The translations under genes were made by a program, and so were the position numbers. 18,578 bases of DNA from a virus (Duplodnaviria; Heunggongvirae; Uroviricota; Caudoviricetes): IMG/VR virus record IMGVR_UViG_2778261535_000010, one strand, 5' to 3'. Below, one piece after another: positions 2,302-16,477 of the stretch; the stretch's first letter is position 1, and every line of letters begins with the position of its first letter. The notes below the pieces were generated by a model that was given only the letters and a program-made list of their open reading frames with translations, did no database searches and had not been told where the DNA came from.

Positions 2302-2775
2302 ATGAGTGGCCCAAGTTTCAGTATCAGCGGCAAGCCAGTGATGGTGACGCCAACAGCGATCACCAACGGCGTGACGTTCTGGCCCGATCTCGATCTGGCC
2401 GAGTTTCAGAAGGTGCGCACGCTGCCCGCTGATCTGCCGCCAGAAACCGCAGGCGTGGCCCTGCTGGCTGCTATTGCGGAGGTAAACGACGCGCTGGCCG
2501 ACGTGGTGACGTACTGGAACGCGAAAGCCTGCGAGCGGGCCGCAGATGTACCGGGTGCAAAGATGGGCGACGAAACCCAGTTAACAGCCCAGTACAAAAA
2601 AGCGGTCTACGCCCGCGCAAAGGCCGATTTACTGGGGGAGTTCGCCACCATCGGGCGGCGTGAATCGCATCCGGGACAGGAAAGCCAGGACACCCGCGCC
2701 AGTCTGTTGGCCGAGGCGGCCAACGTGATGCGAAACATGCTGCGACAACCTCGCGTTGGGGTGCATCTGATATGA
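2302..2775 (+). CDS. head completion/stabilization protein (gpL-like)
   Basis: ATG at 2302 preceded by GAGG at 2291-2294. The ORF track extends to 2242 but that upstream Met has no RBS. Position after gpM matches P2. Confidence 0.6.
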   Translation: MSGPSFSISGKPVMVTPTAITNGVTFWPDLDLAEFQKVRTLPADLPPETAGVALLAAIAEVNDALADVVTYWNAKACERAADVPGAKMGDETQLTAQYKKAVYARAKADLLGEFATIGRRESHPGQESQDTRASLLAEAANVMRNMLRQPRVGVHLI

Positions 2776-3248
2776 GCCAGCTTGAAAGCCTGACGACATT
2801 TATTACGGAAAATCTGCCGCCTGATGCCATGCAGATGTTTTCCAGTGTGATGGAAGATTGCGGGCTGACACGCAACGCCAAAGCGATGGGAAACAACCAG
2901 CGCCGGATCGGGGTGCTGACTTACACCGGTCGTTTGTCATGGGATGATTTCCCCTACCGCAAGTATTCGCCGGGGCTGATTTATGCGCTGGTGCTGGCCT
3001 GGGTGGATGAGTTCGCCAACGAGCTGCGCGACGAGCTGAGGCTGGATGATCCAAAAGTGGACCCGGAGTTCGACGACGAAGGGGCATGCATTCTGGATGT
3101 GGTCATCCCGCTGGTTGATCCGCTGGTTTTGCGTGAAGCGGAAAACGGCCCGATCCCCTACAAAGGCAAGCGCTGGGAAATCGTGGACCCCGAAATCTGG
3201 GAGGCGTCGCAACTGGAATTTATTGTCCAGCGTGGTGACGCGTCGTGA
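2772..3248 (+). CDS. tail completion protein (P2 gpR-like)
   Basis: 158 aa; start overlaps the gpL stop (ATGA). The motif TYTGRLSWDDF...LIYALVLAWVDE resembles the P2 gpR pattern (TDFTG...PVLAWL) as I recall it; size is close to P2 gpR (155 aa). Confidence 0.5.
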   Translation: MSQLESLTTFITENLPPDAMQMFSSVMEDCGLTRNAKAMGNNQRRIGVLTYTGRLSWDDFPYRKYSPGLIYALVLAWVDEFANELRDELRLDDPKVDPEFDDEGACILDVVIPLVDPLVLREAENGPIPYKGKRWEIVDPEIWEASQLEFIVQRGDAS

Positions 3249-3940
3249 TCCGGGGGGAGCTGAACCAACAACAGCTAAAGCAGATGCGGGAAACGCTGGC
3301 AAAAGCTGACCTTCCCCCGCGTAAGCGCCAGCGCCTTTTATGGCGTATTGCAAAGCTGGGCATTGTCGCAGCGGCAAAACGTCACCAGCGCCAGCAGGCG
3401 GCCCCGGGCGGTACGCCGTGGGAGCCGCGCAAGCGTGGCAAAGGGAAGATGTTAAAAGGGCTGCCCAAGCTGTTGGCCGTGCGCGAAATGCCAGAGATTC
3501 AGGGGGTAAGAATTTACCTCAAGGGCGGGAACTACCGGAACGGGACGAAGCCGATCGCGGCGGGCCTGGTCGGTGCGGTCCAGCAGGACGGCGCACGGAT
3601 CCAGATGAAAGCCAGTAACGCCCCGCGCAAGCCGCAGGCTGACCAGCCAGCGCTACCGCGACAGGCCAAGCGTCTGCGGGCACTGGGCTACAAAACCCGC
3701 AAGGGCAAGCGCTGGGTTAAGCCGTCCAGCAGGCAAATCATGGAAACCATGAGCATGGCCCAGGCGGGATTACTGATTCGAAAACTGAAAGGCACACCAT
3801 CAAAACGCACATGGACTATTGATATTCCTGGTCGCGTTTTTCTGGGGGTGAGCAACGACGAATTTAACCAAATTATTGCGCGGCAAATGCAGGCAATCGG
3901 CTTCGGCTGGGACGTCAACGCGCAGCAAATCAGGGGGTAA
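3245..3940 (+). CDS. virion morphogenesis / tail completion protein (gpS-like)
   Basis: 231 aa; GTG start overlapping the previous stop (GTGA). Lys/Arg-rich central region. The nearest ATG alternative is at 3284. Confidence 0.45.
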   Translation: MIRGELNQQQLKQMRETLAKADLPPRKRQRLLWRIAKLGIVAAAKRHQRQQAAPGGTPWEPRKRGKGKMLKGLPKLLAVREMPEIQGVRIYLKGGNYRNGTKPIAAGLVGAVQQDGARIQMKASNAPRKPQADQPALPRQAKRLRALGYKTRKGKRWVKPSSRQIMETMSMAQAGLLIRKLKGTPSKRTWTIDIPGRVFLGVSNDEFNQIIARQMQAIGFGWDVNAQQIRG

Positions 3941-3942
3941 AA

Positions 3943-5085
3943 ATGACCTGGCCTACAGTCAACGTCAGTCAGAAAAACCGCTTCAACGGCACAACGAACG
4001 ACGTCGAGCGCGTCATCCTCTTTGTGGGTTACGGCGACACTAACATCGGGAAAACCCAGTCGCTTAATACCGGCAGCGATCTGGTTAAAGCTCTGGGCGA
4101 CAAAGACAGCCCGTTAAAAAATATGGTGGCCGCAGCAGCCAATAACGCCGGTCAGAACTGGTTTGCTTACGTGCATGTGCTGGCAGAGCCAGACAAGGGA
4201 GCCGAGGGCTACAAACCAGACGAAGACTGGATGAACGCGGTCAAACAGGCCCAGAGCGTGGCATCCGTGGAAGGGGTTGTCCTGGCATTTGATACCGCCG
4301 ACGCAGCCACCATTAACCGCGCAACGGAAATGCGCGTCACCTTACAGGCCAGTTTTGGGCGTTTTATCTGGTTTGCCCTTGCTGTGGGCGGGCCGGAAAA
4401 GGACGAAGCGTGGAGCGACTATGTGACGCGCCTGGCTGAACTCCAGGACGGTATTGCATCGCCTGGAGTGCAACTGGTCCCGCGTCTGTGGGGTAACGAA
4501 CCCGGCGTCCTGGTCGGTCGCCTGTGTAACCGTTCGGTGACGGTGGCAGACAGCCCCGCCCGCGTCGCAACCGGCGCAGTCACCGCGCTGGGGAGCGACG
4601 GCCTGCCGGTCGACGGGACGGGGGCCGAAATTGATCTGGCCGTGTTGCAGTCCTTGCAGGCGAACCGCTACAGCGTGCCGATGTGGTATCACGATTATGA
4701 CGGCATCTACTGGGCTGACGGTCGCACCCTGGACGTTGAAGGCGGTGATTATCAGGTGATTGAAAACGTGCGCGTGGTTGATAAAGCCTCCCGCCGCGTC
4801 CGTCTGCGTGCAATCCCAAAAATTGCCGATCGTTCACTGAACAGCACACCGGGCAGCATCGCCGCGCATGAAACCTATTTCGGCAAGCCGCTGCGCGAAA
4901 TGGCGATTTCAACCCAGATCAATGGCGTCGAATTTCCGGGCGAAGTGAAGCCACCAAAGGACGGCGACATCACCATCACCTGGACCAGTAGCGAAGCGGT
5001 GCAGATTTACCTTGTGGTTCGACCGTATGAGAGCGCGAAAGAAATCAGCGTCAGCATCGAACTGGACACCTCACTGGAGAGCTAA
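3943..5085 (+). CDS. tail sheath protein (putative)
   Basis: 380 aa, in the size range of contractile sheath proteins, directly followed by a 151-aa tube-sized gene, in a prophage that also has TMP and baseplate genes. AGGGGG RBS. Confidence 0.5.
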   Translation: MTWPTVNVSQKNRFNGTTNDVERVILFVGYGDTNIGKTQSLNTGSDLVKALGDKDSPLKNMVAAAANNAGQNWFAYVHVLAEPDKGAEGYKPDEDWMNAVKQAQSVASVEGVVLAFDTADAATINRATEMRVTLQASFGRFIWFALAVGGPEKDEAWSDYVTRLAELQDGIASPGVQLVPRLWGNEPGVLVGRLCNRSVTVADSPARVATGAVTALGSDGLPVDGTGAEIDLAVLQSLQANRYSVPMWYHDYDGIYWADGRTLDVEGGDYQVIENVRVVDKASRRVRLRAIPKIADRSLNSTPGSIAAHETYFGKPLREMAISTQINGVEFPGEVKPPKDGDITITWTSSEAVQIYLVVRPYESAKEISVSIELDTSLES

Positions 5086-5088
5086 TCA

Positions 5089-5544
5089 ATGACTGAACGT
5101 ATCAGCGGTGGATCGTTCGATGTGAACTACGACAGCATCATGATTCACGTCGAAAACGCCACCGTCACCATTACGGATAACAGCGCCGTTGCGCAGTCGC
5201 GTGGCATCCCGAACGGCCACACGAAAGGGGCAGTTTCGGCGGATGTGGAAGTCGAAGTCGACTCCCAGAACTTTAAAAAGTTTACCGCCGTGGCCCGTGC
5301 CGCAGGTTCCTGGCGATCCATTCCGGCAAAGGACTTTTTGTTCTACGCCAACGCCGGGGACGACGAAGAAAAAATCGAGGTGTTTGGCTGCGTTCCGACG
5401 CTGTCCGACATCGTCAACATCAACCCCAACGAGGCCAGCAAAACCACGAAGAAAATTAAATTCATGGTGACAAGCCCGGACTTTGTCGCGATTGACGGCG
5501 TGCCGTACCTGTCAGCCCGCGACACTCGCGATTTGAAAGGCTGA
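5089..5544 (+). CDS. tail tube protein (putative)
   Basis: 151 aa; starts 4 nt after the sheath stop. Size and position are typical for a tube protein. Confidence 0.5.
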   Translation: MTERISGGSFDVNYDSIMIHVENATVTITDNSAVAQSRGIPNGHTKGAVSADVEVEVDSQNFKKFTAVARAAGSWRSIPAKDFLFYANAGDDEEKIEVFGCVPTLSDIVNINPNEASKTTKKIKFMVTSPDFVAIDGVPYLSARDTRDLKG

Positions 5545-5548
5545 CACG

Positions 5549-5860
5549 ATGATGAACGGAGAAACGTCACTGCTTGAAAAGCTGTTGCTTATCGGGGCCG
5601 TGATTGGCCTGGGGCAACTGATGGTCAGCAATGAGCGAATCACAACCCGCCTGCTGGTCGGGCGGATGATTCTGGGATCTGCGGTCGCACCGCTGGCCGC
5701 AATCCCGCTGCTGAAATTCCCCGATATGCCGGAACTGGTCGTCATTGGGCTGGCCTGCGCCCTGGGCATTCTGGGAAGCGCGTTTATTGAGGCCGGGTTA
5801 AAGCGCTGCCTGGATATGTATATCAAGCGATGGGGGAGCAAGCGCAATGAAACTGAGTGA
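5549..5860 (+). CDS. holin (class I-like, three predicted TM segments)
   Basis: 103 aa; tandem Met-Met start. Three hydrophobic stretches (LLEKLLLIGAVIGLGQLMV, LLVGRMILGSAVAPLAAIPLL, LVVIGLACALGILGSAFIEAGL) and a charged C-terminus (KRCLDMYIKRWGSKRNETE). Lies immediately upstream of the endolysin. Confidence 0.6.
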   Translation: MMNGETSLLEKLLLIGAVIGLGQLMVSNERITTRLLVGRMILGSAVAPLAAIPLLKFPDMPELVVIGLACALGILGSAFIEAGLKRCLDMYIKRWGSKRNETE

Positions 5861-6185
5861 AAAACAGCAACTTTTCACGGTGATGATCGCCAACCTGATT
5901 CATTTTGCCGAAGAAAAGGGTTATCGCCTGACGTTTGGCGAAGCGTACCGCACGCCGGAACAGGCCGCGCTTAACGCAAAAAAAGGGAGCGGCATTACTA
6001 ACAGCCTGCATACCCAGCGCCTGGCGGTGGATTTTAACCTGTTTATTAACGGCGATTACCAGACCGACAGCGCCGCATATCGCCCACTGGGCGAATACTG
6101 GGAATCTATCGGCGGATCGTGGGGTGGCCGTTTCAGTAAGCCGGACGGGAACCATTTCAGTCTTGAGCATAACGGGGTTCGCTGA
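5847..6185 (+). CDS. endolysin, L-alanyl-D-glutamate peptidase (peptidase M15 family)
   Basis: 112 aa; GGGGGAG RBS. Contains SLHTQRLAVDF (His-x6-Asp) and a C-terminal DGNHFSLEH His, the zinc-ligand pattern of T5-type M15 endolysins. Start overlaps the holin 3' end. Confidence 0.75.
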   Translation: MKLSEKQQLFTVMIANLIHFAEEKGYRLTFGEAYRTPEQAALNAKKGSGITNSLHTQRLAVDFNLFINGDYQTDSAAYRPLGEYWESIGGSWGGRFSKPDGNHFSLEHNGVR

Positions 6186-6568
6186 TGCGCAATTTGCTGG
6201 GTCTTTTGCTGATTCTGGTCGCTGCAATGTCAGCGGGCTGGCAGGCGCATGACTGGCACGACGCAAAGCTGCAACTCGCTGCCAGTGAAGCGGCAGAACA
6301 AACACGCCAGATTGTCGTTGAAGTGACGCAACAGTCTGGCGAAGCGCTGGAAGCAAAACTCGCGGGGCTAAAAGCCAATGAAAGGCACACGGAACGGGTT
6401 ATTCGCACAGAAATCATTAAGCCGGTTTTTAGCAACGTTTGCGCTTCTGATGATTACGTCCGGTTGTTCAACGAAAGTGCAGATCAAGCCGAACGAGAAT
6501 TATCAGGAAAACCAGCTGACACTTTGCCCGGTCACGCTGCCACGTCTGGCCGGACCGACCGGAAATGA
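6185..6568 (+). CDS. i-spanin (Rz-like)
   Basis: 127 aa; ATG overlaps the endolysin stop (TGATG). N-terminal TM segment LLGLLLILVAAM followed by a charged, probably coiled-coil, periplasmic region. Confidence 0.65.
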   Translation: MRNLLGLLLILVAAMSAGWQAHDWHDAKLQLAASEAAEQTRQIVVEVTQQSGEALEAKLAGLKANERHTERVIRTEIIKPVFSNVCASDDYVRLFNESADQAERELSGKPADTLPGHAATSGRTDRK

Positions 6569-6674
6569 CTTTGACGCGGCGCTGACAGCCTACCGGCAGA
6601 TGTATACCGACTGCGCCGCCCGACATAACGCCCTGGTGGGCATCATTCGACAACGTAAGGAATTAGCACAATGA
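6378..6674 (+). CDS. o-spanin (Rz1-like lipoprotein), +1 frame overlapping Rz
   Basis: Starts inside Rz in another frame and extends past the Rz stop. Signal peptide with a lipobox-like FALLMITSGC. The true start codon is uncertain. Confidence 0.55.
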   Translation: MKGTRNGLFAQKSLSRFLATFALLMITSGCSTKVQIKPNENYQENQLTLCPVTLPRLAGPTGNDFDAALTAYRQMYTDCAARHNALVGIIRQRKELAQ

Positions 6675-6940
6675 GTAAACCGAAAAAAATCGCCATGACC
6701 GTGGCGGGCGTAAATCTGAGCTTTGAGCCGAATAAAACCGCGTTTAACAACCTGCTTAACGAAATGACCATGACCAATAAGGTTGCCCCTATGGTGACGT
6801 ATCTGGGCCGCATTGTTGATGCCGAGTGTAAAGAGTCGCTCAACAAGCTGATGGAAGATTATCCGGGTTGCGAAATGCAGATCGTCGAGAAGGTTAACGA
6901 GATTTACTCCCCCAAACTTGAGATCGAAGTAAAAAACTGA
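6671..6940 (+). CDS. tail assembly chaperone (gpE-like), zero-frame product
   Basis: 89 aa; lies directly upstream of the tape measure gene; ends in the slippery heptamer A_AAA_AAC followed by TGA. Confidence 0.65.
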   Translation: MSKPKKIAMTVAGVNLSFEPNKTAFNNLLNEMTMTNKVAPMVTYLGRIVDAECKESLNKLMEDYPGCEMQIVEKVNEIYSPKLEIEVKN

Positions 6941-7128
6941 CGGCGCGGGTGGCGGCCATTCGCAAGAATGCGCTTGAGCAATACCTTGCCCTGCGCCGCT
7001 ACTACCTCCCGCACGAAGCCGACGACGAAGAAAGCATCGCCCGCGCCCTGTGGCTGGACGAGTATTTTGCCCAGACCCGCGCCAGCAAGACGGCGGAAGG
7101 GATAGCCATCGCATTTAACGGAAACTGA
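6671..7128 (+). CDS. tail assembly chaperone, -1 frameshift fusion product (E+E'-like)
   Basis: Slippery A_AAA_AAC at 6931-6937 in the zero frame. The -1 frame is open from 6937 to the TGA at 7126-7128 (63 extra codons, LTARVAAIRKNALEQYLALRR...IAFNGN) and has no start codon of its own. It ends 1 nt before the tape measure ATG. Confidence 0.6.
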
Positions 7129-7129
7129 T

Positions 7130-9244
7130 ATGAGCCACCTGGATTTTACCCTGAGCCTGATCGATAAGCTGACGCGGCCATTAAAAACGGCCCAGTCTTC
7201 GCTGTCTGGCTTTGCTGAAAAATCGCAGGCATCTTTTACAAAAATCGGGATCGGTGCGGCGGCTGTCTGGGGCGTGGCGCAGTCCATCGCGGGCGTGGTG
7301 GGTCCGGCATATGAGATGAACGCCGCACTTGCAGAAGTGGGTTCCAAAGGCGTGGCAGAGGACGCGCTGAAGCGTCTGTCCGGCGAAGCTATGCGATTCA
7401 GTATGCGCTACGGCAAAGGGGCCGTTGATGTGGTCCGGTCAAGCTACGCGATGAAAGGTGCAATGGCGGGCCTGTCCGATCTGGACCTGCCCCGCGTCAC
7501 CATCGCGGCCAATACCCTTGCGGCAGGCGTCAAGGCCAGCGGCGAAGAGGCAGGCGAATACATCGGCGCGATGGCGTCACGTTTCAACGCGGAGTTGTCC
7601 AGTCTGGGCCATGTGCGTTTTGCCGAAGAGCTGGCAGGGAAAACCGCGTACATGGTGCAAAACTTCGGCGTGAAAATGCAGACCATGCAGGAGCTTATCG
7701 AGGGGACGAAAAGTGCCGGTGCTGACTTTGGCGTCAGCCTGGATGAACAGTTCGCCGTCCTGGGTACGCTTTCGCGCACGCTGGGTACTGAGGCCAGCGG
7801 GATCTACGAGCAGTTTTTACGCAGCGCCCCGGCTGCCGCTGAAAAGCTGGGTATGAGCTTTGTCGATGCCACCGGAAAAATGCTGCCGATGGGCGACATT
7901 CTGCAAAAACTCCAGAGTAAATACGGGCAGAGCATTGAAGGGAACGTCAAGGCACAACAGGCGCTGGACGCCGCGTTCGGTGGCGGTGCTGACGTTATCA
8001 AAAAGCTGTACGGCCAGCAGGATAAATTAAATCGCAGTATCACCGAGCTGGGCCGAAACGACGGGATGAAACGCGCCCAGGAAATGGCCGCACGAATGGC
8101 CGAGCCGTGGGAGCGTATCAAAGCGACATTCTTTGCCATTCGCGTGGCGATTGGTAACAGGCTGATCCCTATTCTGTCACCGCTGATGAACCGTATTGCC
8201 GACGTGGGGACAAAATTTGCCCGCTGGCTGGATATGTTCCCGAATATTGCCCGCTGGCTGGGTTACATCACCCTGGGCGTGCTGTCCTTCGGGCTGGCCG
8301 GGGCGGCGGTCAATATCGTGATGGGGGTCTTTGGCTTCACCATGATGGGGCTGGCCGCAATCGCAAAAGTGCTGGGCGGTGCATGGAAACTCCTGTTATG
8401 GACGCTCAACCTGTTGCGTCCGTCCCTGCTGACGACGCGCATCGGTCTGGCCGCATTATGGATCCAGTCAAAATTGCTGGCGTTGTGGACGGGCGTCTGT
8501 CGCATCGCGCTTGCTGCATGGAATATCGCGTTAAAGGCCGGGGCCATTGCCATGCGGGTTTACGGTGCGGCGACCATGTTTGCCGGGGCTGCAATGCAAT
8601 TCCTGATGAGTCCGATCACCCTGATTATTGCCGGACTGGCGCTTCTGGCTGTGGGGGTCTGGTATGTCGTCACCCACTGGGAAGAACTGGCGGCAGCGAT
8701 CATGGATACGGCGGCTTTTGCCTGGGTGATGTCAGTCGCTGAACAGGTGGGACAGGTGTTTGCGCAGGTCTGGCAATCCATTACTGACGGCTGGGCCGTG
8801 GTGGTTGATTTCTTTGCCGGTCTTTCCCCGCTCGCCACCTTTGAAGGGTTCGCACAGACCATCGGCGGGGTATTCAGCAAACTTTTCGACGTCCTCAAAA
8901 ATACCTTTGCATCTACCTATAACTGGATTGTTGAGAAGTTAAACAAGATCCCCGGCGTCAACATCGACCTGAAAACCGTTTCGCCACCGGCAGCGGCTGC
9001 CGTTCCGGCAAACGCGGTCGTTCCTGACAGTGCTGCAGGTTCGTCGAAGCTGAACAGCCCGTCCGTGCTGACGGGGAACCGAATTAATGCAGACATCCCA
9101 CGCGGCGGCCTGATGAGTCAGGTTAAAACCGACAGCAAAACCGCTGTGGATAACCGTAAATCGTGGGGCGACACCTACATCAACGCCCCCAATGGAATCA
9201 CCCCGGCCCAGCTGGCTGAATGGCAGGAGCTTAACGCAGGATGA
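7130..9244 (+). CDS. tail tape measure protein
   Basis: 704 aa; follows the frameshifted chaperone; Ala/Gly-rich with a long central hydrophobic, helix-rich block (NIARWLGYITLGVLSFGLAGAAVNIVMGVFGF...). Confidence 0.85.
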   Translation: MSHLDFTLSLIDKLTRPLKTAQSSLSGFAEKSQASFTKIGIGAAAVWGVAQSIAGVVGPAYEMNAALAEVGSKGVAEDALKRLSGEAMRFSMRYGKGAVDVVRSSYAMKGAMAGLSDLDLPRVTIAANTLAAGVKASGEEAGEYIGAMASRFNAELSSLGHVRFAEELAGKTAYMVQNFGVKMQTMQELIEGTKSAGADFGVSLDEQFAVLGTLSRTLGTEASGIYEQFLRSAPAAAEKLGMSFVDATGKMLPMGDILQKLQSKYGQSIEGNVKAQQALDAAFGGGADVIKKLYGQQDKLNRSITELGRNDGMKRAQEMAARMAEPWERIKATFFAIRVAIGNRLIPILSPLMNRIADVGTKFARWLDMFPNIARWLGYITLGVLSFGLAGAAVNIVMGVFGFTMMGLAAIAKVLGGAWKLLLWTLNLLRPSLLTTRIGLAALWIQSKLLALWTGVCRIALAAWNIALKAGAIAMRVYGAATMFAGAAMQFLMSPITLIIAGLALLAVGVWYVVTHWEELAAAIMDTAAFAWVMSVAEQVGQVFAQVWQSITDGWAVVVDFFAGLSPLATFEGFAQTIGGVFSKLFDVLKNTFASTYNWIVEKLNKIPGVNIDLKTVSPPAAAAVPANAVVPDSAAGSSKLNSPSVLTGNRINADIPRGGLMSQVKTDSKTAVDNRKSWGDTYINAPNGITPAQLAEWQELNAG

Positions 9245-9576
9245 GTACCGAACCGTTATACATCGACCTTTTGATCACTGACGGCGATTTCACGCTGGAC
9301 AGCGGCAACGAGCCGCGCCGTTGCGATAACCGCGACAGCATCACCCAGGACATTATTCACAGCATTCTGGAAAGCGGTATCACCACCCGCCTGATCGGTG
9401 AGCGCAGCCCGACAATGCGCGGTGACGTGCTGACGCAACTGTCCTTACTGGTGGAAAGCGACGAACGTCTGGTCCCCGGCACCATATTGATCACCGAAGA
9501 AACCCTTTCGCGGTTGTATGTCACGGCGGAAACCTACGATTTCGGCCCTGTCGGTACAGAGGTTAACTATGACTGA
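9241..9576 (+). CDS. baseplate protein, possibly gp25/gpW-like wedge
   Basis: 111 aa; ATGA overlap with the TMP stop. Weak gp25-like pattern (DSITQDIIHSILESGITTRLIGER). Sits immediately before the baseplate J gene. Confidence 0.4.
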   Translation: MSTEPLYIDLLITDGDFTLDSGNEPRRCDNRDSITQDIIHSILESGITTRLIGERSPTMRGDVLTQLSLLVESDERLVPGTILITEETLSRLYVTAETYDFGPVGTEVNYD

Positions 9577-10753: not shown

Positions 10754-11339
10754 GTTTTCAACCTTGCTTGCCGGTCTGAAATTGCCGTCGTGGCTGAACA
10801 AAGGCGACCCCGCCAGGCTGTTGCGTGGCTGCGTGAAATTCTGGTCGCAGGTGTACGGGTGGATTACCTGGCCGTTAAAGCAGTTTGACCCACTGGTCTG
10901 CCCCGAACCGCTGTTAAACCTGATTGCCTGGGAACGCGACATCGTTCGGTTTAAGGGGGAGCCGCTCGACATTTTCCGCAAACGGGTGAGTTACGCATTT
11001 ATCAATGCGCAGCAGGCCGGAGAGGTGGCGGGCTTTATTGCCATTTTTGAGCGACTGGGGATTGGTTACGTTGAATTACTGGAGCGGCAGGACGGACTCG
11101 ACTGGGATGTGATTGTCGTTCGGGTGACAAACAGTCAGATTGCGGAAAATGGCGATCTCCTGCTGGAAATTATCCGTAAATATGGGCGTACATGCCGCCG
11201 TTACCAATTTGAAGTGATCACAGCCCTGCCACTGAATATCAATATCGGCTGGTATCAGGGGGAATATATTTGCTGGCCTGCCACCCTGAGTGATGTGAAT
11301 AACCAGCCCCAAATAACATACAGCGCAAGTTTGAAGTAG
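10746..11339 (+). CDS. tail protein I-like (baseplate, gpI family)
   Basis: ATG at 10746 with GGAGGT RBS; overlaps the J-like stop by 8 nt. About 197 aa, immediately upstream of the tail fiber. Confidence 0.55.
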   Translation: MTEFSTLLAGLKLPSWLNKGDPARLLRGCVKFWSQVYGWITWPLKQFDPLVCPEPLLNLIAWERDIVRFKGEPLDIFRKRVSYAFINAQQAGEVAGFIAIFERLGIGYVELLERQDGLDWDVIVVRVTNSQIAENGDLLLEIIRKYGRTCRRYQFEVITALPLNINIGWYQGEYICWPATLSDVNNQPQITYSASLK

Positions 11340-11350
11340 AGGAAAAACCT

Positions 11351-13036
11351 ATGTCACAGGCTGTTATTACAAAAGCATTTACAGAGTGGAAAGCCCAGCA
11401 GGCTATTAATAATCAGCCCGTCACGCTGGATGAATTTATTTTTGCGTATATTCCGGGGTTGGATGCTGATAAGCCGATTGATAATACCGAGACAGCACCC
11501 GCAGTGGATAAAATTGTTTATCGTCAGGTGGTGAGTAAATCCGGTGTTGTGAATGAAAACTCTGTCGTTTATTCCGTCACTATGGGGGCGGATGTGGGTG
11601 ATTTTGATTTCAACTGGATCGGTCTGGCAAATAAAGCCACCGGTACACTGGCGATGATTATTCATGCCCCGACCCAGCGTAAAATCAAAAATGCGAACGG
11701 CCAGCAGGGAAACGTTCTGGTCCGTTCCATGCTGATGGAATACAGCGGAGCCAGGGAAGCAACGGAAATTACCACCCCGGCAGAGACATGGCAGATTGAT
11801 TTTACTGCCCGGCTGGCGGCAATGGATGAACGCCAGCGCCGCGAAAATATCGATCTGTATGGCGCAGCGGCTTTTTTTGATTCGGGCTATCTGGTAGCCA
11901 AAACCGGCAATCAATTTTTTGTCACAAAGGGGGCGGGATACGTCGCCGGGTTACGTGCTGAATTGCCCGCAAACATGAATATCACTGCATCCGCGAAGCC
12001 AACAAAGGTCTGGCTTGATGTCAGCTGGACCGGGACGTTAACGAGCGAATGGGCAGTGCAGAGCAAAATCACCGTTGCCGCAGATCTTGCCGATTATGTA
12101 CTGGGCGGTGTGCAGCATTATGTCTTTGCGGTGGCGAGTATTGATGCTACCGGAAATGTCATGGACCTGCGCCCGAAAGGCACGCTGAACCACCAGGCGG
12201 CCAGTGATGCGCTGAAAAAGCATGAGCAGTCGCGAAATCACCCTGATGCCTCAATCAGCGAAAAAGGGTTTGTGCAGTTAAGCAATGCCACGAACAGCGA
12301 TTCCGAGACACTGGCCGCCACGCCAAAGGCAGTAAAAGCGGTGAATGAGAATGCGAATAAGCGCGTTCCTTCCGAACGCAAAGTGAATGGTAAGCCACTG
12401 ACGGAAGATATTGAGATTACGTCGATAACGGGTAATGCAGGGACTGCCACGAAGCTGGCTACAGCCCGCACTATAGGGGGAGTGGGGTTTGATGGTTCGG
12501 CTAACATTAATCTGCCGGGTGTAAACACTCAGGGAAACCAGAACACTACGGGTAATGCAGGGACTGCCACAAAGCTGGCTACAGCTCGCACTATAGGGGG
12601 AGTGGAGTTTGATGGTTCGGCAAACATTAATCTGCCGGGGGTAAACACTCAGGGAAACCAGAACACCACAGGTAACGCTGCAACAGCCACAAAGTTGCAT
12701 ACAGCTCGCACAATTAATGGCGTTGTTTTTGACGGTACGAAAGATATTGCTATTTCAGCAAGTGCGATTGGTTCCTACACAAAAGCGGAATCTGATGCAC
12801 GATTTCAGATAATTGTTCCTGTTTCTGGTGCGGTGGGTACTTATGCCTTCGCCCGAATTGAATCAGGTAATACCACTATTAATTTTGGTTCCACTCTGCC
12901 CGGTTCAGTACTTCGTGCAACATGTGGAGATGGCACTCTGGCCGGTAATGCTCTTGCAGGTACATGGCGATGTTGTGGAGCAACTTGGGGATCTTCCTGG
13001 TACAGTCGAAATACTGTATGGATTCGCATTGTATAA
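11351..13036 (+). CDS. tail fiber protein
   Basis: 561 aa. Contains SETLAATPKAVKAVNE and tandem KLATARTIGGVxFDGSANINL repeats typical of phage tail fibers. Followed by a tail fiber assembly gene. Confidence 0.85.
   Translation: MSQAVITKAFTEWKAQQAINNQPVTLDEFIFAYIPGLDADKPIDNTETAPAVDKIVYRQVVSKSGVVNENSVVYSVTMGADVGDFDFNWIGLANKATGTLAMIIHAPTQRKIKNANGQQGNVLVRSMLMEYSGAREATEITTPAETWQIDFTARLAAMDERQRRENIDLYGAAAFFDSGYLVAKTGNQFFVTKGAGYVAGLRAELPANMNITASAKPTKVWLDVSWTGTLTSEWAVQSKITVAADLADYVLGGVQHYVFAVASIDATGNVMDLRPKGTLNHQAASDALKKHEQSRNHPDASISEKGFVQLSNATNSDSETLAATPKAVKAVNENANKRVPSERKVNGKPLTEDIEITSITGNAGTATKLATARTIGGVGFDGSANINLPGVNTQGNQNTTGNAGTATKLATARTIGGVEFDGSANINLPGVNTQGNQNTTGNAATATKLHTARTINGVVFDGTKDIAISASAIGSYTKAESDARFQIIVPVSGAVGTYAFARIESGNTTINFGSTLPGSVLRATCGDGTLAGNALAGTWRCCGATWGSSWYSRNTVWIRIV
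12428..12750 (+). repeat. in-frame 120-bp tandem repeat inside the tail fiber gene (two near-identical copies plus a diverged third)
   Basis: Copy 1 (12428-12547) and copy 2 (12548-12667) differ at about 5 positions. From 12668 the homology continues but is diverged (GNAATATKLHTARTINGVVFDG). Confidence 0.9.
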
Positions 13037-13049
13037 TTTGGAGGTGCTT

Positions 13050-13448
13050 ATGTTTGAGAATGCAACGATTGATAACCCTCGAACCACAAATATCAATATT
13101 TATATTGATGTGGATATTCACCTGAATGATCAATCAATTACTTTTACTTCGATGCCTGACGACTCCGAAATATATAGTGTTGAGATTTATAAACGCGCTT
13201 TAAATGGCGAGTTTGGAAAAATTATAACTATTGAAAATGATGTTTTTTCGGCAAACAAACTACAAAAAGACATGTTGCAATCAAGGGCGGCTGAATCAAT
13301 TACTGTTCTTGAATATGCGGTTGAATTGAAAATGGCAACGGAAAAGGAAATGCAACTACTCAATGAATGGAAAAAATATGTAGTTTTATTAAGCCGCGTT
13401 AATTTAACAAACCCTAAATGGCCGGAGGTTCCGGGCGATGTGGCGTGA
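13050..13448 (+). CDS. tail fiber assembly protein (Tfa/gpG-like chaperone)
   Basis: 133 aa; GGAGG RBS with ATG at 13050. C-terminal NPKWPEVP motif typical of Tfa proteins. Markedly AT-rich compared with neighbouring genes. Confidence 0.7.
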   Translation: MFENATIDNPRTTNINIYIDVDIHLNDQSITFTSMPDDSEIYSVEIYKRALNGEFGKIITIENDVFSANKLQKDMLQSRAAESITVLEYAVELKMATEKEMQLLNEWKKYVVLLSRVNLTNPKWPEVPGDVA

Positions 13449-14160
13449 ATCGGTTGTAAAGATTGCTGATGATATGGGGGCGCTGGCCTGTTCCATTGTC
13501 CCCGCGCATCCCTGGGTTTACGGTCTGGGACAGAACACGGATTCAGGCGGTTATCTTAGCCCGGCCAATGCGATGGGATATCTTGCTAAAAAGCTGTTAT
13601 CCGGTGTCGGTAGCGGTGACGTCATCGTCATGATGGTGGCGGAGAATACCCACGACGCTTTTATGCAGGGACTGAATAAACTGTCCACCGTATTTCCGGC
13701 CCCGGTATTTACGCAGGTAAGCCGCATGGCCGCAGCCGCCGCAGAACTCAGCACGGTAAAAATGCAGTTGCCGGTTAAAGCCGACGTATTGCCAGCCAGT
13801 GCGCCGTTATCTGTCTCAACCAACCGGCTGGCGCTGAATGCCCAGCGGGTTGCCGCCGCTCAGCTGGCCGCCTCAGTCAGTACCACCACAACAGATCTAA
13901 AAAATCAGGTTACGGGCTTTATTCAGGAACGGGCCGGTTTGCTGGCCTCACTCAGCCAGGGACTGGACGATCTGAAAGCCGCCAGTGCGAATATTTTTTC
14001 ATTCAGTTACAGCGGGAGTTATGCCGTTGCAGCCGCTGAATTGCTGAAAGGCATCCCGCAAACAACGGCAGTGCATACCGCCGCGATGATGTTTATCGGG
14101 GATTCGTTATCTGACTTAGAGAAGATGCTACATGAGCCAGACCGCATTACTCGCGCTTGA
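13438..14160 (+). CDS. hypothetical phage protein (unassigned, Ala-rich)
   Basis: 240 aa; GGAGG RBS 9 nt upstream of ATG 13438; overlaps the Tfa stop. Phage-like G+C. No motif I can assign. Confidence 0.4.
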   Translation: MWRESVVKIADDMGALACSIVPAHPWVYGLGQNTDSGGYLSPANAMGYLAKKLLSGVGSGDVIVMMVAENTHDAFMQGLNKLSTVFPAPVFTQVSRMAAAAAELSTVKMQLPVKADVLPASAPLSVSTNRLALNAQRVAAAQLAASVSTTTTDLKNQVTGFIQERAGLLASLSQGLDDLKAASANIFSFSYSGSYAVAAAELLKGIPQTTAVHTAAMMFIGDSLSDLEKMLHEPDRITRA

Positions 14161-14674
14161 TGGTGAAGGGATCGCCATGCAAAACATGCTGGTTTCACCT
14201 TCCATGCAGTTTCAGGAGAAGGACCAGTCGGGCCAGACATCGAGCACGGCCAATGCTGAACAGGGTATCAAGGCCAAAGAGCTGCGCGTGTCGGGTCTGG
14301 TGACATTCGACGACGAAGCCGTTTTACAGCGGCTTTTCCAGCTGGCATCCGCAACCGAAGCCAGCGGCGCACTGAAAAAGTACCGCGTCGCAAATGCGAC
14401 GGCAACGGCTATCAACCTTCGTGAAGCCACGTTCACCGGCCAGATTGATGCCGTACCGCAGGAGGATCGCCTTGCCTGGCAGGTAAGTTTTACCCTGCGT
14501 GAAAAAGGCAGCGTCCCGGAAAAACGACAGGCCCGCAAAGGTAATGCGACGGCCAGCACCAAGCAAACGGGGTCAAAGGGCGCGGGTTCGGCTGCCGGTG
14601 CTGACGAGCCAGCCGACAAAATGAGCTGGTTTGAAGAAAAGGTCTTAAAGCCGGTCAACGATGCGCTGGGGTAA
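14132..14674 (+). CDS. hypothetical phage tail protein (possibly gpU-like tube initiator)
   Basis: 180 aa; alternative start at 14177 has a better RBS (GAAGGG). Assignment rests only on size and its position just upstream of the hub/spike gene. Confidence 0.35.
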   Translation: MSQTALLALDGEGIAMQNMLVSPSMQFQEKDQSGQTSSTANAEQGIKAKELRVSGLVTFDDEAVLQRLFQLASATEASGALKKYRVANATATAINLREATFTGQIDAVPQEDRLAWQVSFTLREKGSVPEKRQARKGNATASTKQTGSKGAGSAAGADEPADKMSWFEEKVLKPVNDALG

Positions 14675-14681
14675 TTAAACG

Positions 14682-16406
14682 ATGAAACCAATTAAACGCC
14701 TGTACCTTTCCTCTGATCCGGTCCATCTGATTGACTGCAATATCGTGCTGGAGCTGAACGCGTGCGGTCGGGGGTTTATTACGGCGGGGACCGAGACAGA
14801 TTACACCGGTAAAATAGTGCGTATCGATGTTGGTTATGATGGTCTGGTCCTGCGCTGGTTTACCGGGTATGTCGAGCGGTCACAGCCTGCTGATAATGGA
14901 ACATGCCGGTTGTTCGTGCGTGAGCTGGTAGGCATCTTTGATAAATTGTGGCCGTGTTCTTTCCAGCATCCAACGCTGCGCCAGATTACTGACTGGATAA
15001 GTGAGCAAAGCGGGCTGGCCGTCACAACGCCGGTCGGCGCTGCTTATGCAGATAAACCGATCCCCCACTTTACGCACAGCGGCACGGGCTATCAGCTTCT
15101 TGCCATTCTGGGCCGCGCATTTTCAGTGACGGATTATCTCTGGTATCAGCTGCCGGACGGGGATGTCTTCGTCGGCGCTGCGGATCACAGTCTTTTTGCG
15201 GGTAAACCAGTGGAGATCCCGCACGAATTTAGTCAGGCATCGGCAGGCGGTAATTCAATGGTTGTGCCGATGATTCAGAGCCTGCGCCCCGGCGTTGACG
15301 TCAACGGCCATCGGCTAAACCAGGTCCGGCTAAATAACGACGATATGGCAATCACCTGGCAGCCACGCAGCAAAGCCAACGGCCAGCCATTGCAAAAATC
15401 ACCGATTCAGCGGCAGATTGAAAACGCATTCCCGGAGCTGGCAAGCGGCCTGCATCTTCCAAAGTTCGCCAGAGTGGAAGCACCAAGCGAGGATGTATCA
15501 GGGGGGAATATTGCCGATCCATTCCGCCCGCGCTATGCCGTGGATCTCCAGCTGCTTGACGAAGACGGCAAGCCAGCCGCAAATACGCCGGTTTATTCTG
15601 CCGTTCCGCTACCTGTACCAATGGCGGGGAGCGAGTCGGGAATGTTCCAGTTTCCGCCCCCTGGCACGCTGGTTGAAGTCGGGTTCACGGAGGGGCGGCA
15701 GGATAAGCCCTTTGTGCGCCAGATTATGGCGGAGGGGCATAACCTGCCAGCGGTTAAACCCGGCGAGCAATTGCAGCAACAGCGCGATGGTGTATCGCAG
15801 CGCGTGACGGTTGCCGGAGACTGGGAACGCCAGACGGACCAGACAATTCGCGAAAACTCCATGACTCGCGAAGTCACCACCGACGAAGAGATCCGCAAAG
15901 TGGTTGTCCGTGAAACTACGGTCCAGGCAACAGATAAAACAACCGTGCTGGGCACGGCCACACTTCTGGCCGGGGCGGTGGTCCATATCAGCGAGGGTGA
16001 TTACAGTATTGGCACATCCGGCAACCTGACAGTAACCTGCAGCAAGGACAATTCCGTCAGTGTTGGCCGGAACGTGAAACGGGACGTCGCGGGCAATGTT
16101 ACAGACGACGTGAAAGGGAATGTCACGTCAAACGTCAGCGGCGCACTGACTGAAAAAATCAGCGGCATCCGCCGAAGTGTGGCCCAGGCGCAACAGTTGA
16201 TTGCCCCGGTGGTAAAACTGGGAAGCGAAGAGATTAACGTCCTGACACTACTCACTGACACCCTGGACGTGGTGAGGGTGCTGGCAGAGACTGCCGCATC
16301 ACATACTCACCCCAATACGGGGACCAGCGGGCAGGCTGCGCAGTTCACCGCAACGGCCACTAAAACCGGTACATTGAAAAGCAAATACGGCCCCCTGATA
16401 GCCTGA
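14682..16406 (+). CDS. baseplate hub/central spike protein (VgrG-like architecture; gpV-like C-terminus, possibly fused to a gpD-like N-terminus)
   Basis: 574 aa. The C-terminal region has octapeptide V-x-G repeats (DVAGNVTD / DVKGNVTS / NVSGALTE / KISGIRRS) visible as 24-nt periodicity around 16057-16170, and an H-x-H motif (SHTHP, about 16301-16309) like spike apex iron sites. It is the last gene before att, as gpD is in P2. Confidence 0.55.
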   Translation: MKPIKRLYLSSDPVHLIDCNIVLELNACGRGFITAGTETDYTGKIVRIDVGYDGLVLRWFTGYVERSQPADNGTCRLFVRELVGIFDKLWPCSFQHPTLRQITDWISEQSGLAVTTPVGAAYADKPIPHFTHSGTGYQLLAILGRAFSVTDYLWYQLPDGDVFVGAADHSLFAGKPVEIPHEFSQASAGGNSMVVPMIQSLRPGVDVNGHRLNQVRLNNDDMAITWQPRSKANGQPLQKSPIQRQIENAFPELASGLHLPKFARVEAPSEDVSGGNIADPFRPRYAVDLQLLDEDGKPAANTPVYSAVPLPVPMAGSESGMFQFPPPGTLVEVGFTEGRQDKPFVRQIMAEGHNLPAVKPGEQLQQQRDGVSQRVTVAGDWERQTDQTIRENSMTREVTTDEEIRKVVVRETTVQATDKTTVLGTATLLAGAVVHISEGDYSIGTSGNLTVTCSKDNSVSVGRNVKRDVAGNVTDDVKGNVTSNVSGALTEKISGIRRSVAQAQQLIAPVVKLGSEEINVLTLLTDTLDVVRVLAETAASHTHPNTGTSGQAAQFTATATKTGTLKSKYGPLIA

Positions 16407-16477
16407 CAAAAAGCGGCATAACCGCACACATCACCAGACACCACAGAACGCGCCACAGCAGGCGCAAATATTAAAGG

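What the first reader, a model, noticed from the sequence alone, without database searches (positions are those of the whole stretch)
2772..16406. Hybrid gene order: P2-type head module joined to a rearranged tail module
Head genes follow P2 order (O, N, M, L). The tail genes do not: R/S-like, sheath, tube, lysis, E/E', TMP, W-like, J, I, fiber, Tfa, two unknowns, hub/spike. P2 has lysis, R, S, V, W, J, I, H, G, FI, FII, E, T, U, D. The W-J-I-H-G block and the terminal hub position are conserved but sheath/tube/chaperone/TMP are transposed upstream and no separate V spike or ogr gene is visible. This suggests a distinct mosaic lineage.
Basis: partly seen in the sequence, partly recalled or inferred. 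Interest (0 to 1): 0.45.

Follow-up and report, generated by a model that had tools for sequence, protein, structure and literature searches.

The report
Known HP1-type P2-family prophage late genes
The gene order is real, but it is the standard layout of the long-known HP1-like branch of the P2 phage family, and this prophage is about 96% identical to the described Salmonella phage SI7, so the finding is ordinary.

Summary
Window 2772-16406 encodes, all on the + strand: gpR-like, gpS-like, sheath, tube, holin/endolysin/Rz/Rz1, tail chaperone E/E', tape measure, W-like, J, I, fibre, Tfa, two small proteins and a 574-aa hub. P2-family O, N, M and L genes precede them.

The interpretation as a new mosaic lineage does not hold. 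The window is 96.4% identical over 85% of its length to Salmonella phage SI7 (Peduoviridae, genus Irrigatiovirus). SI7 has the same order, as do 18 complete E. coli genomes that carry the prophage beside yegQ/trhP. Haemophilus phage HP1 (orf17-35) and Vibrio phage K139 are collinear gene for gene, and Pfam names two of the families after HP1 (Phage_HP1_Orf24, HP1_ORF34). A 2023 paper already splits Peduoviridae into HP1 and P2 groups by tail proteins and lists Irrigatiovirus in the HP1 group.

The head genes are also closer to K139/HP1 than to P2, so no recent junction exists at L/R. The "missing" V spike is fused to the hub, which has a VgrG-like fold. The "missing" ogr sits upstream of the portal gene in relatives, outside the window. 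The only real mosaic patch is a roughly 1-kb fibre-tip/Tfa cassette.

The parts
13..444 (+). C-terminal part of the gpO-like capsid scaffold/protease gene; the true start lies upstream of the window
   Evidence: PHROG 73 head scaffolding, E 5e-5; 97.9% identical to SI7 gp03; annotated as 'GPO family capsid scaffolding protein' in the E. coli relative
473..1495 (+). gpN-like major capsid protein
   Evidence: Pfam Phage_cap_P2, E 8.7e-85; 43% identity to K139, 33% to HP1, 26% to P2
1498..2199 (+). gpM-like small terminase subunit
   Evidence: Pfam Phage_term_smal, E 3.5e-34; PHROG 74
2242..2775 (+). gpL-like head completion / head-tail adaptor protein; relatives annotate a start equivalent to 2302
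   Evidence: Pfam Phage_GPL, E 1.1e-34; PHROG 71; start position
2772..3248 (+). gpR-like tail terminator; overlaps L by 4 bases
   Evidence: Pfam P2_Phage_GpR, E 2.9e-18; PHROG 65; collinear with HP1 orf21 and K139 orf21
3245..3940 (+). gpS-like tail completion protein, with an extension relative to P2 S
   Evidence: Pfam Phage_tail_S, E 1.7e-5; hhalign to P2 S gives 93.6% probability; homologue of HP1 orf22
3943..5085 (+). Contractile tail sheath of the HP1 type (DUF2586)
   Evidence: Pfam DUF2586, E 3.6e-132. PHROG 907 'tail sheath', E 1.2e-160. 53% identical to HP1 orf23. In the AF2 model (mean pLDDT 55.7) the confident residues 22-245 match entries for sheath-containing assemblies; sheath is named explicitly for 8bky_A, 9qgp_4A and 3hxl; best E 2e-7. 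The ACA1 homologue was detected in virions by mass spectrometry and linked to P2 FI by HHpred.
5089..5544 (+). Tail tube protein of the HP1 type
   Evidence: Pfam Phage_HP1_Orf24, E 2.9e-51; 52% identical to HP1 orf24 and 51% to K139 orf25 'putative tail tube'. The depositors' HHpred links the ACA1 homologue to P2 FII. My own PDB sequence search and hhalign to P2 FII found nothing.
5549..6674 (+). Lysis cassette: holin 5549-5860, M15 endolysin 5847-6185, Rz 6185-6568, overlapping Rz1 6378-6674
   Evidence: Pfam Phage_holin_3_2 and Peptidase_M15_4; PHROGs 175, 1768, 1152, 2425 and 456; lipobox-like LLMITSGC in Rz1. The cassette sits where it does in HP1 and K139, but tblastn finds no matches there; only the holin matches P2 Y, at 38%.
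6671..7128 (+). Tail assembly chaperone: E (6671-6940) and the predicted -1 frameshift product E+E' running to 7128; slippery A AAA AAC at 6931-6937
   Evidence: Pfam Phage_TAC_10, E 7.9e-30, and DUF6890, E 1.9e-22. The heptamer lies immediately before the E stop codon and the -1 frame is open to 7128. The E' ORF is conserved in HP1 (unannotated, 21502-21669) and in K139.
7130..9244 (+). Tape measure protein
   Evidence: PHROG 28, E 7e-85; Pfam PhageMin_Tail; 31% identical to HP1 orf27 over 720 aligned columns
9241..9576 (+). DUF2590 protein, in the position of gpW/gp25 (sheath initiator)
   Evidence: Pfam DUF2590, E 1.3e-41; 63% identical to HP1 orf28. The gpW role comes from the depositors' HHpred on the ACA1 homologue. 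Not detectable with my small profiles.
9569..10753 (+). gpJ-like baseplate wedge protein; the ORF is open from 9518
   Evidence: Pfam Baseplate_J, E 1.5e-28; PHROG 6; start position
10746..11339 (+). gpI-like baseplate protein
   Evidence: PHROG 1228, E 2e-85; weak Pfam Tail_P2_I match, below the cut-off; 53% identical to HP1 orf30
11351..13036 (+). Tail fibre: conserved N-terminal part, and a C-terminal part exchanged from about 12364
   Evidence: Pfam Phage_tail_fib and Phage_fiber_2; the match to SI7 and to the E. coli relative stops at 12363/12411
13050..13448 (+). Tail fibre assembly chaperone (Tfa), part of the exchanged cassette
   Evidence: Pfam Caudo_TAP, E 4.1e-17; gene call; best hit among the fetched phage genomes is P2 G at 33%, not the SI7 Tfa
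13438..14160 (+). HP1 orf33-like protein; its role in the virion is unknown
   Evidence: PHROG 1677, E 8.6e-77; 28% identical to HP1 orf33; the ACA1 homologue was found in virions by mass spectrometry
14132..14674 (+). HP1 orf34-like baseplate protein, possibly the counterpart of gpU
   Evidence: Pfam HP1_ORF34, E 6.1e-53. Equivalence to gpU is marked uncertain in PMC10612066 Table S1 and is not supported by hhalign here.
14682..16406 (+). Fused baseplate hub and central spike: a gpD-like N-terminal part plus a gpV/gp5-like OB domain and beta-helix, as in VgrG
   Evidence: PHROG 2258. Sub-threshold Pfam matches to Phage_base_V (310-345) and Gp5_C (471-494). The AF2 model (mean pLDDT 63.7; about 85 for roughly the first 240 residues) matches full-length VgrG, PVC8 and AFP8 spikes at E 1e-15 to 1e-11, and Mu gp44, the pyocin R2 hub and T4 gp27 over its N-terminal half. 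The fusion is stated for HP1 in PMC10612066.
16407..16970 (+). Right end of the prophage, holding small ORFs that match no family
   Evidence: The SI7 match ends at 16902; the match to the prophage in the E. coli relative ends at 16963; prophage-free E. coli genomes match from 16974 or 17046 onward. The att core was not located.
17217..18578 (-). Host gene yegQ/trhP (peptidase U32 family); not part of the phage
   Evidence: Present in 5,424 of 5,426 E. coli genomes; Pfam Peptidase_U32, E 9e-89

Best explanation
The region is the late (virion and lysis) gene cluster of a temperate prophage of the HP1-like group of the family Peduoviridae. It belongs to, or sits right beside, the genus Irrigatiovirus (Salmonella phages SI7, SW5 and SW3), and is integrated next to yegQ/trhP in an Escherichia-type chromosome.

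Shown:
- The parts list matches P2 in kind: neck proteins R and S, sheath, tube, a frameshifted chaperone, tape measure, W/J/I baseplate wedge, fibre plus chaperone, and hub plus spike.
- Relative to P2, three things differ. The W-J-I-H-G block lies between the tape measure and the hub genes. The lysis cassette lies after the tube gene. The spike (V) is fused to the C-terminus of the hub (D).
- The fibre tip and its chaperone have been swapped relative to SI7.

Inferred:
- The genes are read as one or a few long late transcripts, driven by an Ogr/Delta-type zinc-finger activator whose gene lies beside the portal gene, outside the window.
- A -1 ribosomal slip at A AAA AAC makes the longer chaperone E+E'.
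- Head and tail have co-evolved since the origin of the HP1 group. The 'hybrid' look reflects an old split, or an ancient module replacement, between HP1-type and P2-type tails.
For: - Megablast: 96.4% identity over 85% of the window to SI7 (Peduoviridae; Irrigatiovirus), plus SW5 and SW3. Eighteen complete E. coli genomes carry the prophage beside yegQ.
- The SI7, HP1 and K139 records show the identical gene order.
- tblastn is collinear with HP1 and K139 for the three head ORFs N, M and L (the cut O fragment gives no hit) and for all non-lysis tail ORFs except Tfa, at 24-63% identity.
- Two Pfam families hit here are named after HP1: Phage_HP1_Orf24 and HP1_ORF34.
- The sheath gene occurs in 76 phage records, all from genera of the HP1 group. 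The nearest capsids broadly belong to the same phages: SI7 98/98%, ESSI2 54/61%, K139 43/42%.
- Literature: Table 2 of PMC10612066 lists Irrigatiovirus in the 'HP1 group'. Its section 4.2 describes the much deeper divergence of the tail module. Table S1 shows the same order in phage ACA1 and notes the D-V fusion in HP1. PMC2771037 defined the 'HP1-like viruses' in 2009.
- Fold evidence for the sheath and the hub-spike.
- The slippery site and the open -1 frame.
- An Ogr_Delta gene next to the portal gene in SI7 (E 1.9e-17) and in the E. coli relative.
- No compositional break at the L/R junction.
- No sigma-70-like promoter on the + strand: 3 found against 11 expected, all on the - strand.
Against: - Only part of the prophage is in the window. 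Portal, terminase, ogr, integrase and the replication genes are not seen, so full-genome membership and intactness are untested.
- The fibre-tip/Tfa cassette (12364-13418) is not shared with SI7 or with any complete E. coli genome. Window coverage by SI7 is therefore 85%, and the prophage may count as a separate species.
- Both AF2 models are of low confidence in their C-terminal parts.
- The tube, W-like and orf34 roles rest on HP1-family membership, position and published HHpred. My own PDB sequence searches and small-profile hhalign runs found nothing.
- Head identities favour K139 and tail identities favour HP1, so some module shuffling or rate difference within the HP1 group is possible.
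Confidence: 0.93

Rival explanations
1. Recent mosaic: a P2-type head module recombined with a foreign, rearranged tail module at the L/R boundary, creating a new lineage.
For: The tail proteins are undetectable against P2 by tblastn and by small-profile hhalign, while N, M, L and S are detectable. PMC10612066 argues that at deep time one subgroup acquired an older paralogue of the tail module.
Against: - The same L-R-S-sheath junction and the same full order occur in HP1, K139, ACA1 and SI7.
- The head proteins are themselves nearer to HP1-group phages than to P2.
- Capsid and sheath neighbour rankings broadly agree.
- L and R overlap by 4 bases and GC content is flat across the junction.
- Any exchange would therefore predate the whole HP1 group, and it has already been published.
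Confidence: 0.04
2. The sheath and tube assignments are wrong. DUF2586 and HP1_Orf24 would be other virion or non-structural proteins, as in some GenBank records that call the DUF2586 gene 'topoisomerase'. The apparent rearrangement would then be an annotation artefact.
For: NCBI labels the protein only 'DUF2586', and two GenBank phage records call it topoisomerase. There is no PDB relative by sequence and no hhalign signal to P2 FI or FII. The AF2 model is poor after residue 245.
Against: - The twelve best Foldseek PDB hits of the model are entries for contractile tails or injection systems. Sheath is named explicitly for the S. coelicolor contracted sheath (8bky_A) and the PVC sheath (9qgp_4A) among those twelve, and for DSY3957 (3hxl) lower in the list. 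Best E 2e-7.
- PHROG 907 is annotated 'tail sheath'.
- The ACA1 homologue is the second most abundant structural protein by spectrum count and matches P2 and T4 sheaths by HHpred.
- No other candidate sheath or tube gene exists in a genome that otherwise encodes a full contractile-tail baseplate.
Confidence: 0.02
3. A defective prophage remnant or a tailocin-type particle, rather than a functional phage late region.
For: Only the late region is visible in the window, and the integrase, replication and portal genes cannot be checked.
Against: - All ORFs are intact and 93-100% identical in protein to the isolated phage SI7, apart from the swapped fibre tip, the Tfa and a small unannotated ORF at the prophage end.
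- Head genes are present, which a tailocin would lack.
- The E. coli relatives carry the complete genome, including portal, terminase, replication and cox genes.
Confidence: 0.05

Closest known systems
Salmonella phage SI7 (NC_049460; Peduoviridae, genus Irrigatiovirus), with SW5 and SW3
   Same: 96.4% nucleotide identity over window positions 1-12363 and 13415-16902. The gene order is identical. Proteins are 93-100% identical, apart from the swapped fibre tip and Tfa and a small unannotated ORF at the prophage end (81%).
   Different: The fibre C-terminal part and Tfa (12364-13414) are replaced by an unrelated, shorter, low-GC cassette. This copy is a prophage next to an Escherichia-type yegQ.
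Haemophilus phage HP1 (Hpunavirus) and Vibrio phage K139 (Longwoodvirus), the founders of the 'HP1-like' group
   Same: The gene order matches gene for gene from N to the terminal hub (HP1 orf18-35). The sheath (DUF2586), tube (HP1_Orf24), DUF2590, orf33, orf34 and fused D-V hub families are shared, as is the lysis cassette's position after the tube gene.
   Different: Protein identity is only 24-63%. The lysis genes are not homologous, and the fibre tip and Tfa are unrelated. The hosts differ. HP1 has its cos site next to attP (PMC2771037).
Enterobacteria phage P2 (Peduovirus)
   Same: The O-N-M-L head gene order and families are shared, as are the R and S neck proteins, the W-J-I-H-G block order, the E/E' -1 frameshift chaperone and the hub at the end of the late region. 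The holin is 38% identical, and the P2-type fibre repeat and Tfa are shared.
   Different: In P2 the order is lysis-R-S / V-W-J-I-H-G / FI-FII-E-T-U-D-ogr. Here it is R-S-FI-FII-lysis-E-T-W-J-I-H-G-orf33-orf34-(D+V). Sheath, tube, tape measure, W, U, D and V are not detectably similar in sequence. V is fused to D, and ogr lies beside the portal gene in relatives.
VgrG-type hub-spike fusions (type VI secretion VgrG, PVC8, AFP8)
   Same: The fold of the 574-aa terminal protein is a gp27/gpD-like hub followed by an OB domain and a beta-helix in a single chain.
   Different: There is no significant sequence similarity (TIGR01646 scores 16.7 bits against a cut-off of 121.8). This is a phage tail component, not a secretion-system component.

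Membership tests
Genus Irrigatiovirus (Peduoviridae) | High nucleotide similarity to the exemplar SI7. From my own knowledge, the ICTV genus level is roughly 70% or more over the genome. | tested here: met
   96.4% identity over 85% of the 18.6-kb window. Only the late region and the host flank are visible, so the rest of the genome is untested.
Genus Irrigatiovirus (Peduoviridae) | Same species as SI7. From my own knowledge, this needs about 95% identity over the full length. | tested here: inconclusive
   Identity times coverage in the window is about 82%, because of the fibre/Tfa cassette and the host flank. The full genome is not available.
HP1-like group of Peduoviridae | HP1-type tail proteins: DUF2586 sheath, HP1_Orf24 tube, DUF2590, orf33, HP1_ORF34 | tested here: met
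   Pfam E-values from 3.6e-132 to 1.3e-41; tblastn identity of 28-63% to HP1
HP1-like group of Peduoviridae | Late-gene order O N M L R S sheath tube lysis chaperone TMP W J I H G orf33 orf34 hub | tested here: met
   Collinear with HP1 orf17-35, K139 orf17-39, SI7 gp03-24 and ACA1 gp27-49
HP1-like group of Peduoviridae | Divergent portal and large terminase genes upstream of O, with an Ogr-like activator beside the portal gene | not testable with these tools
   These lie outside the window. They are present in SI7 (gp02, gp38 and gp39; Ogr_Delta E 1.9e-17) and in the E. coli relative.
P2 subgroup (Peduovirus-type tail) | Tail gene order V W J I H G / FI FII E T U D ogr | tested here: not met
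   The order differs.
P2 subgroup (Peduovirus-type tail) | P2-type sheath FI, tube FII, gpU and gpD protein families | tested here: not met
   No Pfam, NCBIfam or tblastn match; hhalign probability of 0.6% or less
P2-family head module | Phage_cap_P2 capsid, P2-type small terminase, GPL head completion and GPO scaffold, in the order O N M L | tested here: met
   O is only partly inside the window (PHROG 73, E 5e-5).
Contractile tail sheath proteins | Sheath fold | tested here: met
   Foldseek best hits are entries for phage, eCIS, AFP, PVC and diffocin assemblies; sheath is named explicitly for 8bky_A, 9qgp_4A and 3hxl. E from 2e-7 to 3e-4, probability 1.0. The model has mean pLDDT 55.7, with only residues 22-245 confident.
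VgrG-like fused hub-spike | gp27-like hub domains followed by a gp5-like OB domain and a beta-helix in one chain | tested here: met
   Foldseek matches full-length VgrG, PVC8 and AFP8 at E 1e-15 to 1e-11. The model's N-terminal part is confident; the beta-helix region is of low confidence, as the protein was modelled as a monomer. Weak Phage_base_V and Gp5_C hits.
Programmed -1 frameshift tail chaperone (P2 E/E', lambda G/GT type) | Slippery heptamer at the end of the upstream ORF, and a conserved -1 frame extension just before the tape measure gene | tested here: met
   A AAA AAC at 6931-6937, directly before the stop codon. The -1 ORF is open to 7128 and matches DUF6890. It is conserved in HP1 and K139. 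Frameshifting itself was not tested experimentally.

The most novel reading that the evidence does not exclude
The prophage is a new species-level member of Irrigatiovirus in an Escherichia host. Its roughly 1-kb fibre-tip/Tfa cassette (12364-13418, GC about 43%) is absent from 5,426 complete E. coli genomes and from the SI7 group, and may confer a receptor specificity not yet seen in this genus.
Probability: 0.5. Interest if true: 0.15.

Novelty: already known. Interest (0 to 1): 0.08.

Why it matters
It matters little beyond correct annotation. The arrangement has been on record since the HP1 genome, which Lavigne et al. 2009 cite as Esposito et al. 1996. It was formalised as the 'HP1-like viruses' in 2009, and as the HP1 group of Peduoviridae, including Irrigatiovirus, in 2023.

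Two practical points follow:
- Standard pipelines still label the sheath 'DUF2586', or even 'topoisomerase', and label the hub-spike 'hypothetical'. HP1-type prophages in enterobacteria therefore look odd to a reader who knows only P2.
- A phmmer search with the sheath and small-profile searches with the tube, DUF2590, orf33 and orf34 proteins found no relative of solved structure. The hub-spike gave only marginal beta-helix hits (E 0.015 or weaker). An HP1-group tail structure would therefore fill a gap.

Tried and rejected
- Sequence searches of the PDB found nothing meaningful. I used phmmer for the sheath and 3-sequence profiles for the tube, DUF2590, orf33 and orf34.
- hhalign of HP1-group profiles (3-17 sequences, Neff about 1.4-1.8 where reported) against single P2 proteins gave no signal for sheath, tube, W, TAC, U, D or V. 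It gave signal only for S (93.6%), R (36%), J (24.5%) and I (6.7%). Homology of the core tail proteins to P2 therefore rests on fold matches and on published HHpred, not on my own sequence comparisons.
- NCBIfam gave nothing above its cut-offs for the tail proteins.
- The K139 genome paper (PMC135448) is not held in the library.
- A longest-common-substring search for the att core between the window's right end and SI7 attP was inconclusive. The prophage end is given only as a range.
- No tRNA gene is present at the integration site.
- The idea of a compositional junction at L/R was rejected, because GC is 0.59-0.60 on both sides. The only GC dip (0.43-0.47, from 12.5 to 14 kb) belongs to the fibre-tip/Tfa cassette.
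- In one search the 'SI7' database inadvertently contained all four phage genomes. The Tfa hit reported there is to P2 G, not to SI7. This was corrected.

Full report
**What is in the window**

All long ORFs from 13 to 16406 lie on the + strand and abut or overlap by a few bases.

- Head genes: the C-terminal part of O (13-444), N (473-1495, Phage_cap_P2, E 8.7e-85), M (1498-2199) and L (2242-2775).
- Neck: a gpR-like tail terminator (2772-3248, P2_Phage_GpR, E 2.9e-18) and a gpS-like protein (3245-3940).
- Sheath and tube: a DUF2586 protein that PHROGs calls tail sheath (3943-5085, E 1.2e-160) and a Phage_HP1_Orf24 protein (5089-5544).
- Lysis: holin, M15 endolysin, Rz and an overlapping Rz1 (5549-6674).
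- Chaperone and tape measure: a Phage_TAC_10 chaperone (6671-6940) with a -1 frame ORF (DUF6890, to 7128), then the tape measure (7130-9244).
- Baseplate: DUF2590 (9241-9576), Baseplate_J (9569-10753) and an I-like protein (10746-11339).
- Fibre: a tail-collar fibre (11351-13036) and a Caudo_TAP chaperone (13050-13448).
- End of the cluster: a PHROG 1677 protein (13438-14160), an HP1_ORF34 'baseplate complex' protein (14132-14674) and a 574-aa 'baseplate protein' (14682-16406).

The remainder, 17217-18578 on the - strand, is the host gene yegQ/trhP.

**What it is**

Megablast of the whole window finds Salmonella phage SI7 at 96.4% identity over 85% of the query, along with SW5 and SW3. The SI7 RefSeq record is classified Peduoviridae; Irrigatiovirus; Irrigatiovirus SI7, and it lists exactly the same gene order, gp03 to gp24. 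These phages were isolated in British Columbia and formed an unclassified cluster with no close relative in 2019 (PMC6783827).

Eighteen complete E. coli genomes carry the same prophage next to yegQ (95.5% identity). In one of them the rest of the genome is visible: cox, replication endonuclease, an ogr/Delta-like zinc-finger gene, portal and large terminase.

Prophage-free E. coli chromosomes match the window only from 16974 or 17046 onward, and the SI7 match ends at 16902. The prophage therefore ends at about 16.9-17.05 kb.

**The order is the HP1 order**

The records for Haemophilus phage HP1 and Vibrio phage K139 show the same order, gene for gene:

O, N, M, L, orf21 (tail terminator), orf22, sheath, tube, holin, lysin, Rz, chaperone, tape measure, DUF2590, J-like, I-like, fibre, Tfa, two small ORFs and a terminal 'baseplate protein'.

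tblastn of the window's proteins against these genomes gives collinear hits for N, M and L (the cut O fragment gives no hit) and for every non-lysis tail ORF except Tfa:

| Protein | HP1 | K139 |
|---|---|---|
| N (capsid) | 33% | 43% |
| Sheath | 53% | 42% |
| Tube | 52% | 51% |
| DUF2590 | 63% | 43% |
| J-like | 49% | 42% |
| Hub | 41% | 35% |

Against P2, only N (26%), M, L, S, the holin, a fibre repeat and Tfa are found.

Compared with P2, three things differ:
- The W-J-I-H-G block sits between T and the hub genes. Equivalently, FI-FII-E-T has moved upstream.
- The lysis cassette follows the tube gene instead of following L.
- R and S follow L directly.

**The literature already describes this**

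Lavigne et al. 2009 split the P2 phages into 'P2-like' and 'HP1-like' viruses. [quoted passage not shown]

A 2023 study divides all Peduoviridae genera into an HP1 group and a P2 subgroup by tail-protein similarity, and lists Irrigatiovirus in the HP1 group (Table 2). It used SW5 in its time trees. [quoted passage not shown] Its Table S1 gives the same gene order for phage ACA1, as does the ACA1 GenBank record.

**Is there a recent hybrid junction? No.**

- The head proteins are nearer to HP1-group phages than to P2.
- The sheath occurs in 76 phage records, all from HP1-group hosts and genera. The capsid family occurs in 508 records.
- The closest capsids broadly belong to the same phages as the closest sheaths:

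| Phage | Capsid | Sheath |
|---|---|---|
| SI7 | 98% | 98% |
| ESSI2-type | 54% | 61% |
| K139 | 43% | 42% |

- L and R overlap by 4 bases, and GC stays at 0.59-0.60 across the junction.

The deep asymmetry is nevertheless real. With small profiles, hhalign recovers P2 S (93.6%), R (36%), J (24.5%) and I (6.7%), but nothing for sheath, tube, W, chaperone, U, D or V.

**Checks of the critical assignments**

Sheath:
- An AlphaFold2 model built from 17 homologues has mean pLDDT 55.7, with residues 22-245 confident.
- Its twelve best Foldseek PDB matches are entries for contractile tails or injection systems: phage 812, phage Milano, the Streptomyces CIS (including the contracted sheath shell 8bky_A), AFP, the PVC sheath (9qgp_4A) and diffocin. 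The sheath protein DSY3957 (3hxl) appears lower in the list. The best E-value is 2e-7.
- The ACA1 homologue is abundant in virions by mass spectrometry and aligns with the P2 and T4 sheaths by HHpred.

Tube:
- The support is Pfam Phage_HP1_Orf24, the gene's position and size, the K139 annotation and the ACA1 depositors' HHpred.
- My own searches added nothing.

Hub:
- The AF2 model has mean pLDDT 63.7, about 85 for roughly the first 240 residues.
- It matches full-length VgrG, PVC8 and AFP8 spikes at E 1e-15 to 1e-11. Its N-terminal half matches Mu gp44, the pyocin R2 hub and T4 gp27.
- There are weak Phage_base_V and Gp5_C hits at 310-345 and 471-494.
- The protein is therefore a fusion of the P2 D and V equivalents, as stated for HP1 in PMC10612066 Table S1, footnote d. 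This explains why no separate V gene is visible.

ogr:
- SI7 gp38 is an Ogr_Delta zinc finger (E 1.9e-17) beside the portal gene, and the E. coli relative is the same.
- The gene exists in the lineage but lies outside the window.

**How it works (inferred)**

- This is a late operon set encoding neck, contractile tail, lysis and baseplate functions.
- No sigma-70-like promoter is found on the + strand: 3 sites in the window against 11 expected, all on the - strand. That fits activator-dependent late promoters.
- The chaperone pair is made by a -1 slip at A AAA AAC (6931-6937), which sits immediately before the E stop codon (6938-6940). The -1 frame is open for 65 codons to 7128 and is conserved in HP1 and K139.

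**The one real mosaic patch**

Window 12364-13414, covering the fibre C-terminal part and Tfa, is not shared with SI7 or with the E. coli O45 prophage. GC falls to 0.43-0.47 in this part of the window, from about 12.5 to 14 kb. There is no megablast match in 5,426 complete E. coli genomes and only partial matches of 68-78% in phages. The exact fibre protein is on six contigs in the large assembly collection. This is the usual host-range cassette exchange.

**Verdict**

The interpretation as a novel hybrid lineage is not: the arrangement is that of the known HP1-like group and of the described genus Irrigatiovirus. Interest is low.

Noticed in passing
window 12364-13418: The fibre C-terminal part and the Tfa chaperone form a low-GC (about 0.43) cassette, replaced relative to SI7 and to the E. 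coli relatives. It has no near match in 5,426 complete E. coli genomes and only 68-78% partial matches in phages (Hafnia phage yong2; P1-type fibre repeats). The exact fibre protein occurs on just 6 contigs.
   Followed up: partly
window 6931-6937: A classic -1 slippery heptamer, A AAA AAC, lies directly before the stop codon of the chaperone gene. The -1 frame extension (DUF6890) is conserved in HP1, where it is unannotated (L002 21502-21669), and in K139.
   Followed up: yes
window 3943-5085; GenBank MK972712 and OM095401: The DUF2586 sheath gene is labelled 'topoisomerase IA' or 'topoisomerase' in two GenBank phage records, and only 'DUF2586 domain-containing protein' in RefSeq bacterial genomes. 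These are misleading or uninformative annotations of a tail sheath.
   Followed up: partly
window 17217-18578 (-): The host gene yegQ/trhP matches PHROG 2895 (E = 0). The likely cause is that the record 'Phage TP' (AY639599, 'putative protease') includes host flank, so a bacterial housekeeping gene sits in a phage-protein family.
   Followed up: no
L005 31451-32416 (E. coli O45:H2 FWSEC0003), equivalent to window position ~16960: Related E. coli prophages carry an AbiH abortive-infection gene between the hub gene and yegQ. It is absent here, and a 9-base overlap (16955-16963) marks the insertion point.
   Followed up: no
window 16407-16970: The prophage right end holds small ORFs with no family match (for example 16486-16761, 91 aa) and a strong hairpin at 16956-16980. 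The att core could not be located, and there is no tRNA gene at the site.
   Followed up: partly
window 5549-6674: The lysis cassette occupies the same slot as in HP1 and K139 but with non-homologous genes. The endolysin is a small M15 peptidase of 112 aa rather than a lysozyme, and the holin resembles P2 Y (38%). Rz1 overlaps the end of Rz and has a lipobox-like LLMITSGC.
   Followed up: partly
window 473-5544 compared with L002 and L004: Head proteins are closer to K139 than to HP1 (N 43% against 33%), whereas sheath, DUF2590, J, I and hub are closer to HP1 (for example sheath 53% against 42%). This hints at module shuffling or unequal rates within the HP1 group.
   Followed up: no
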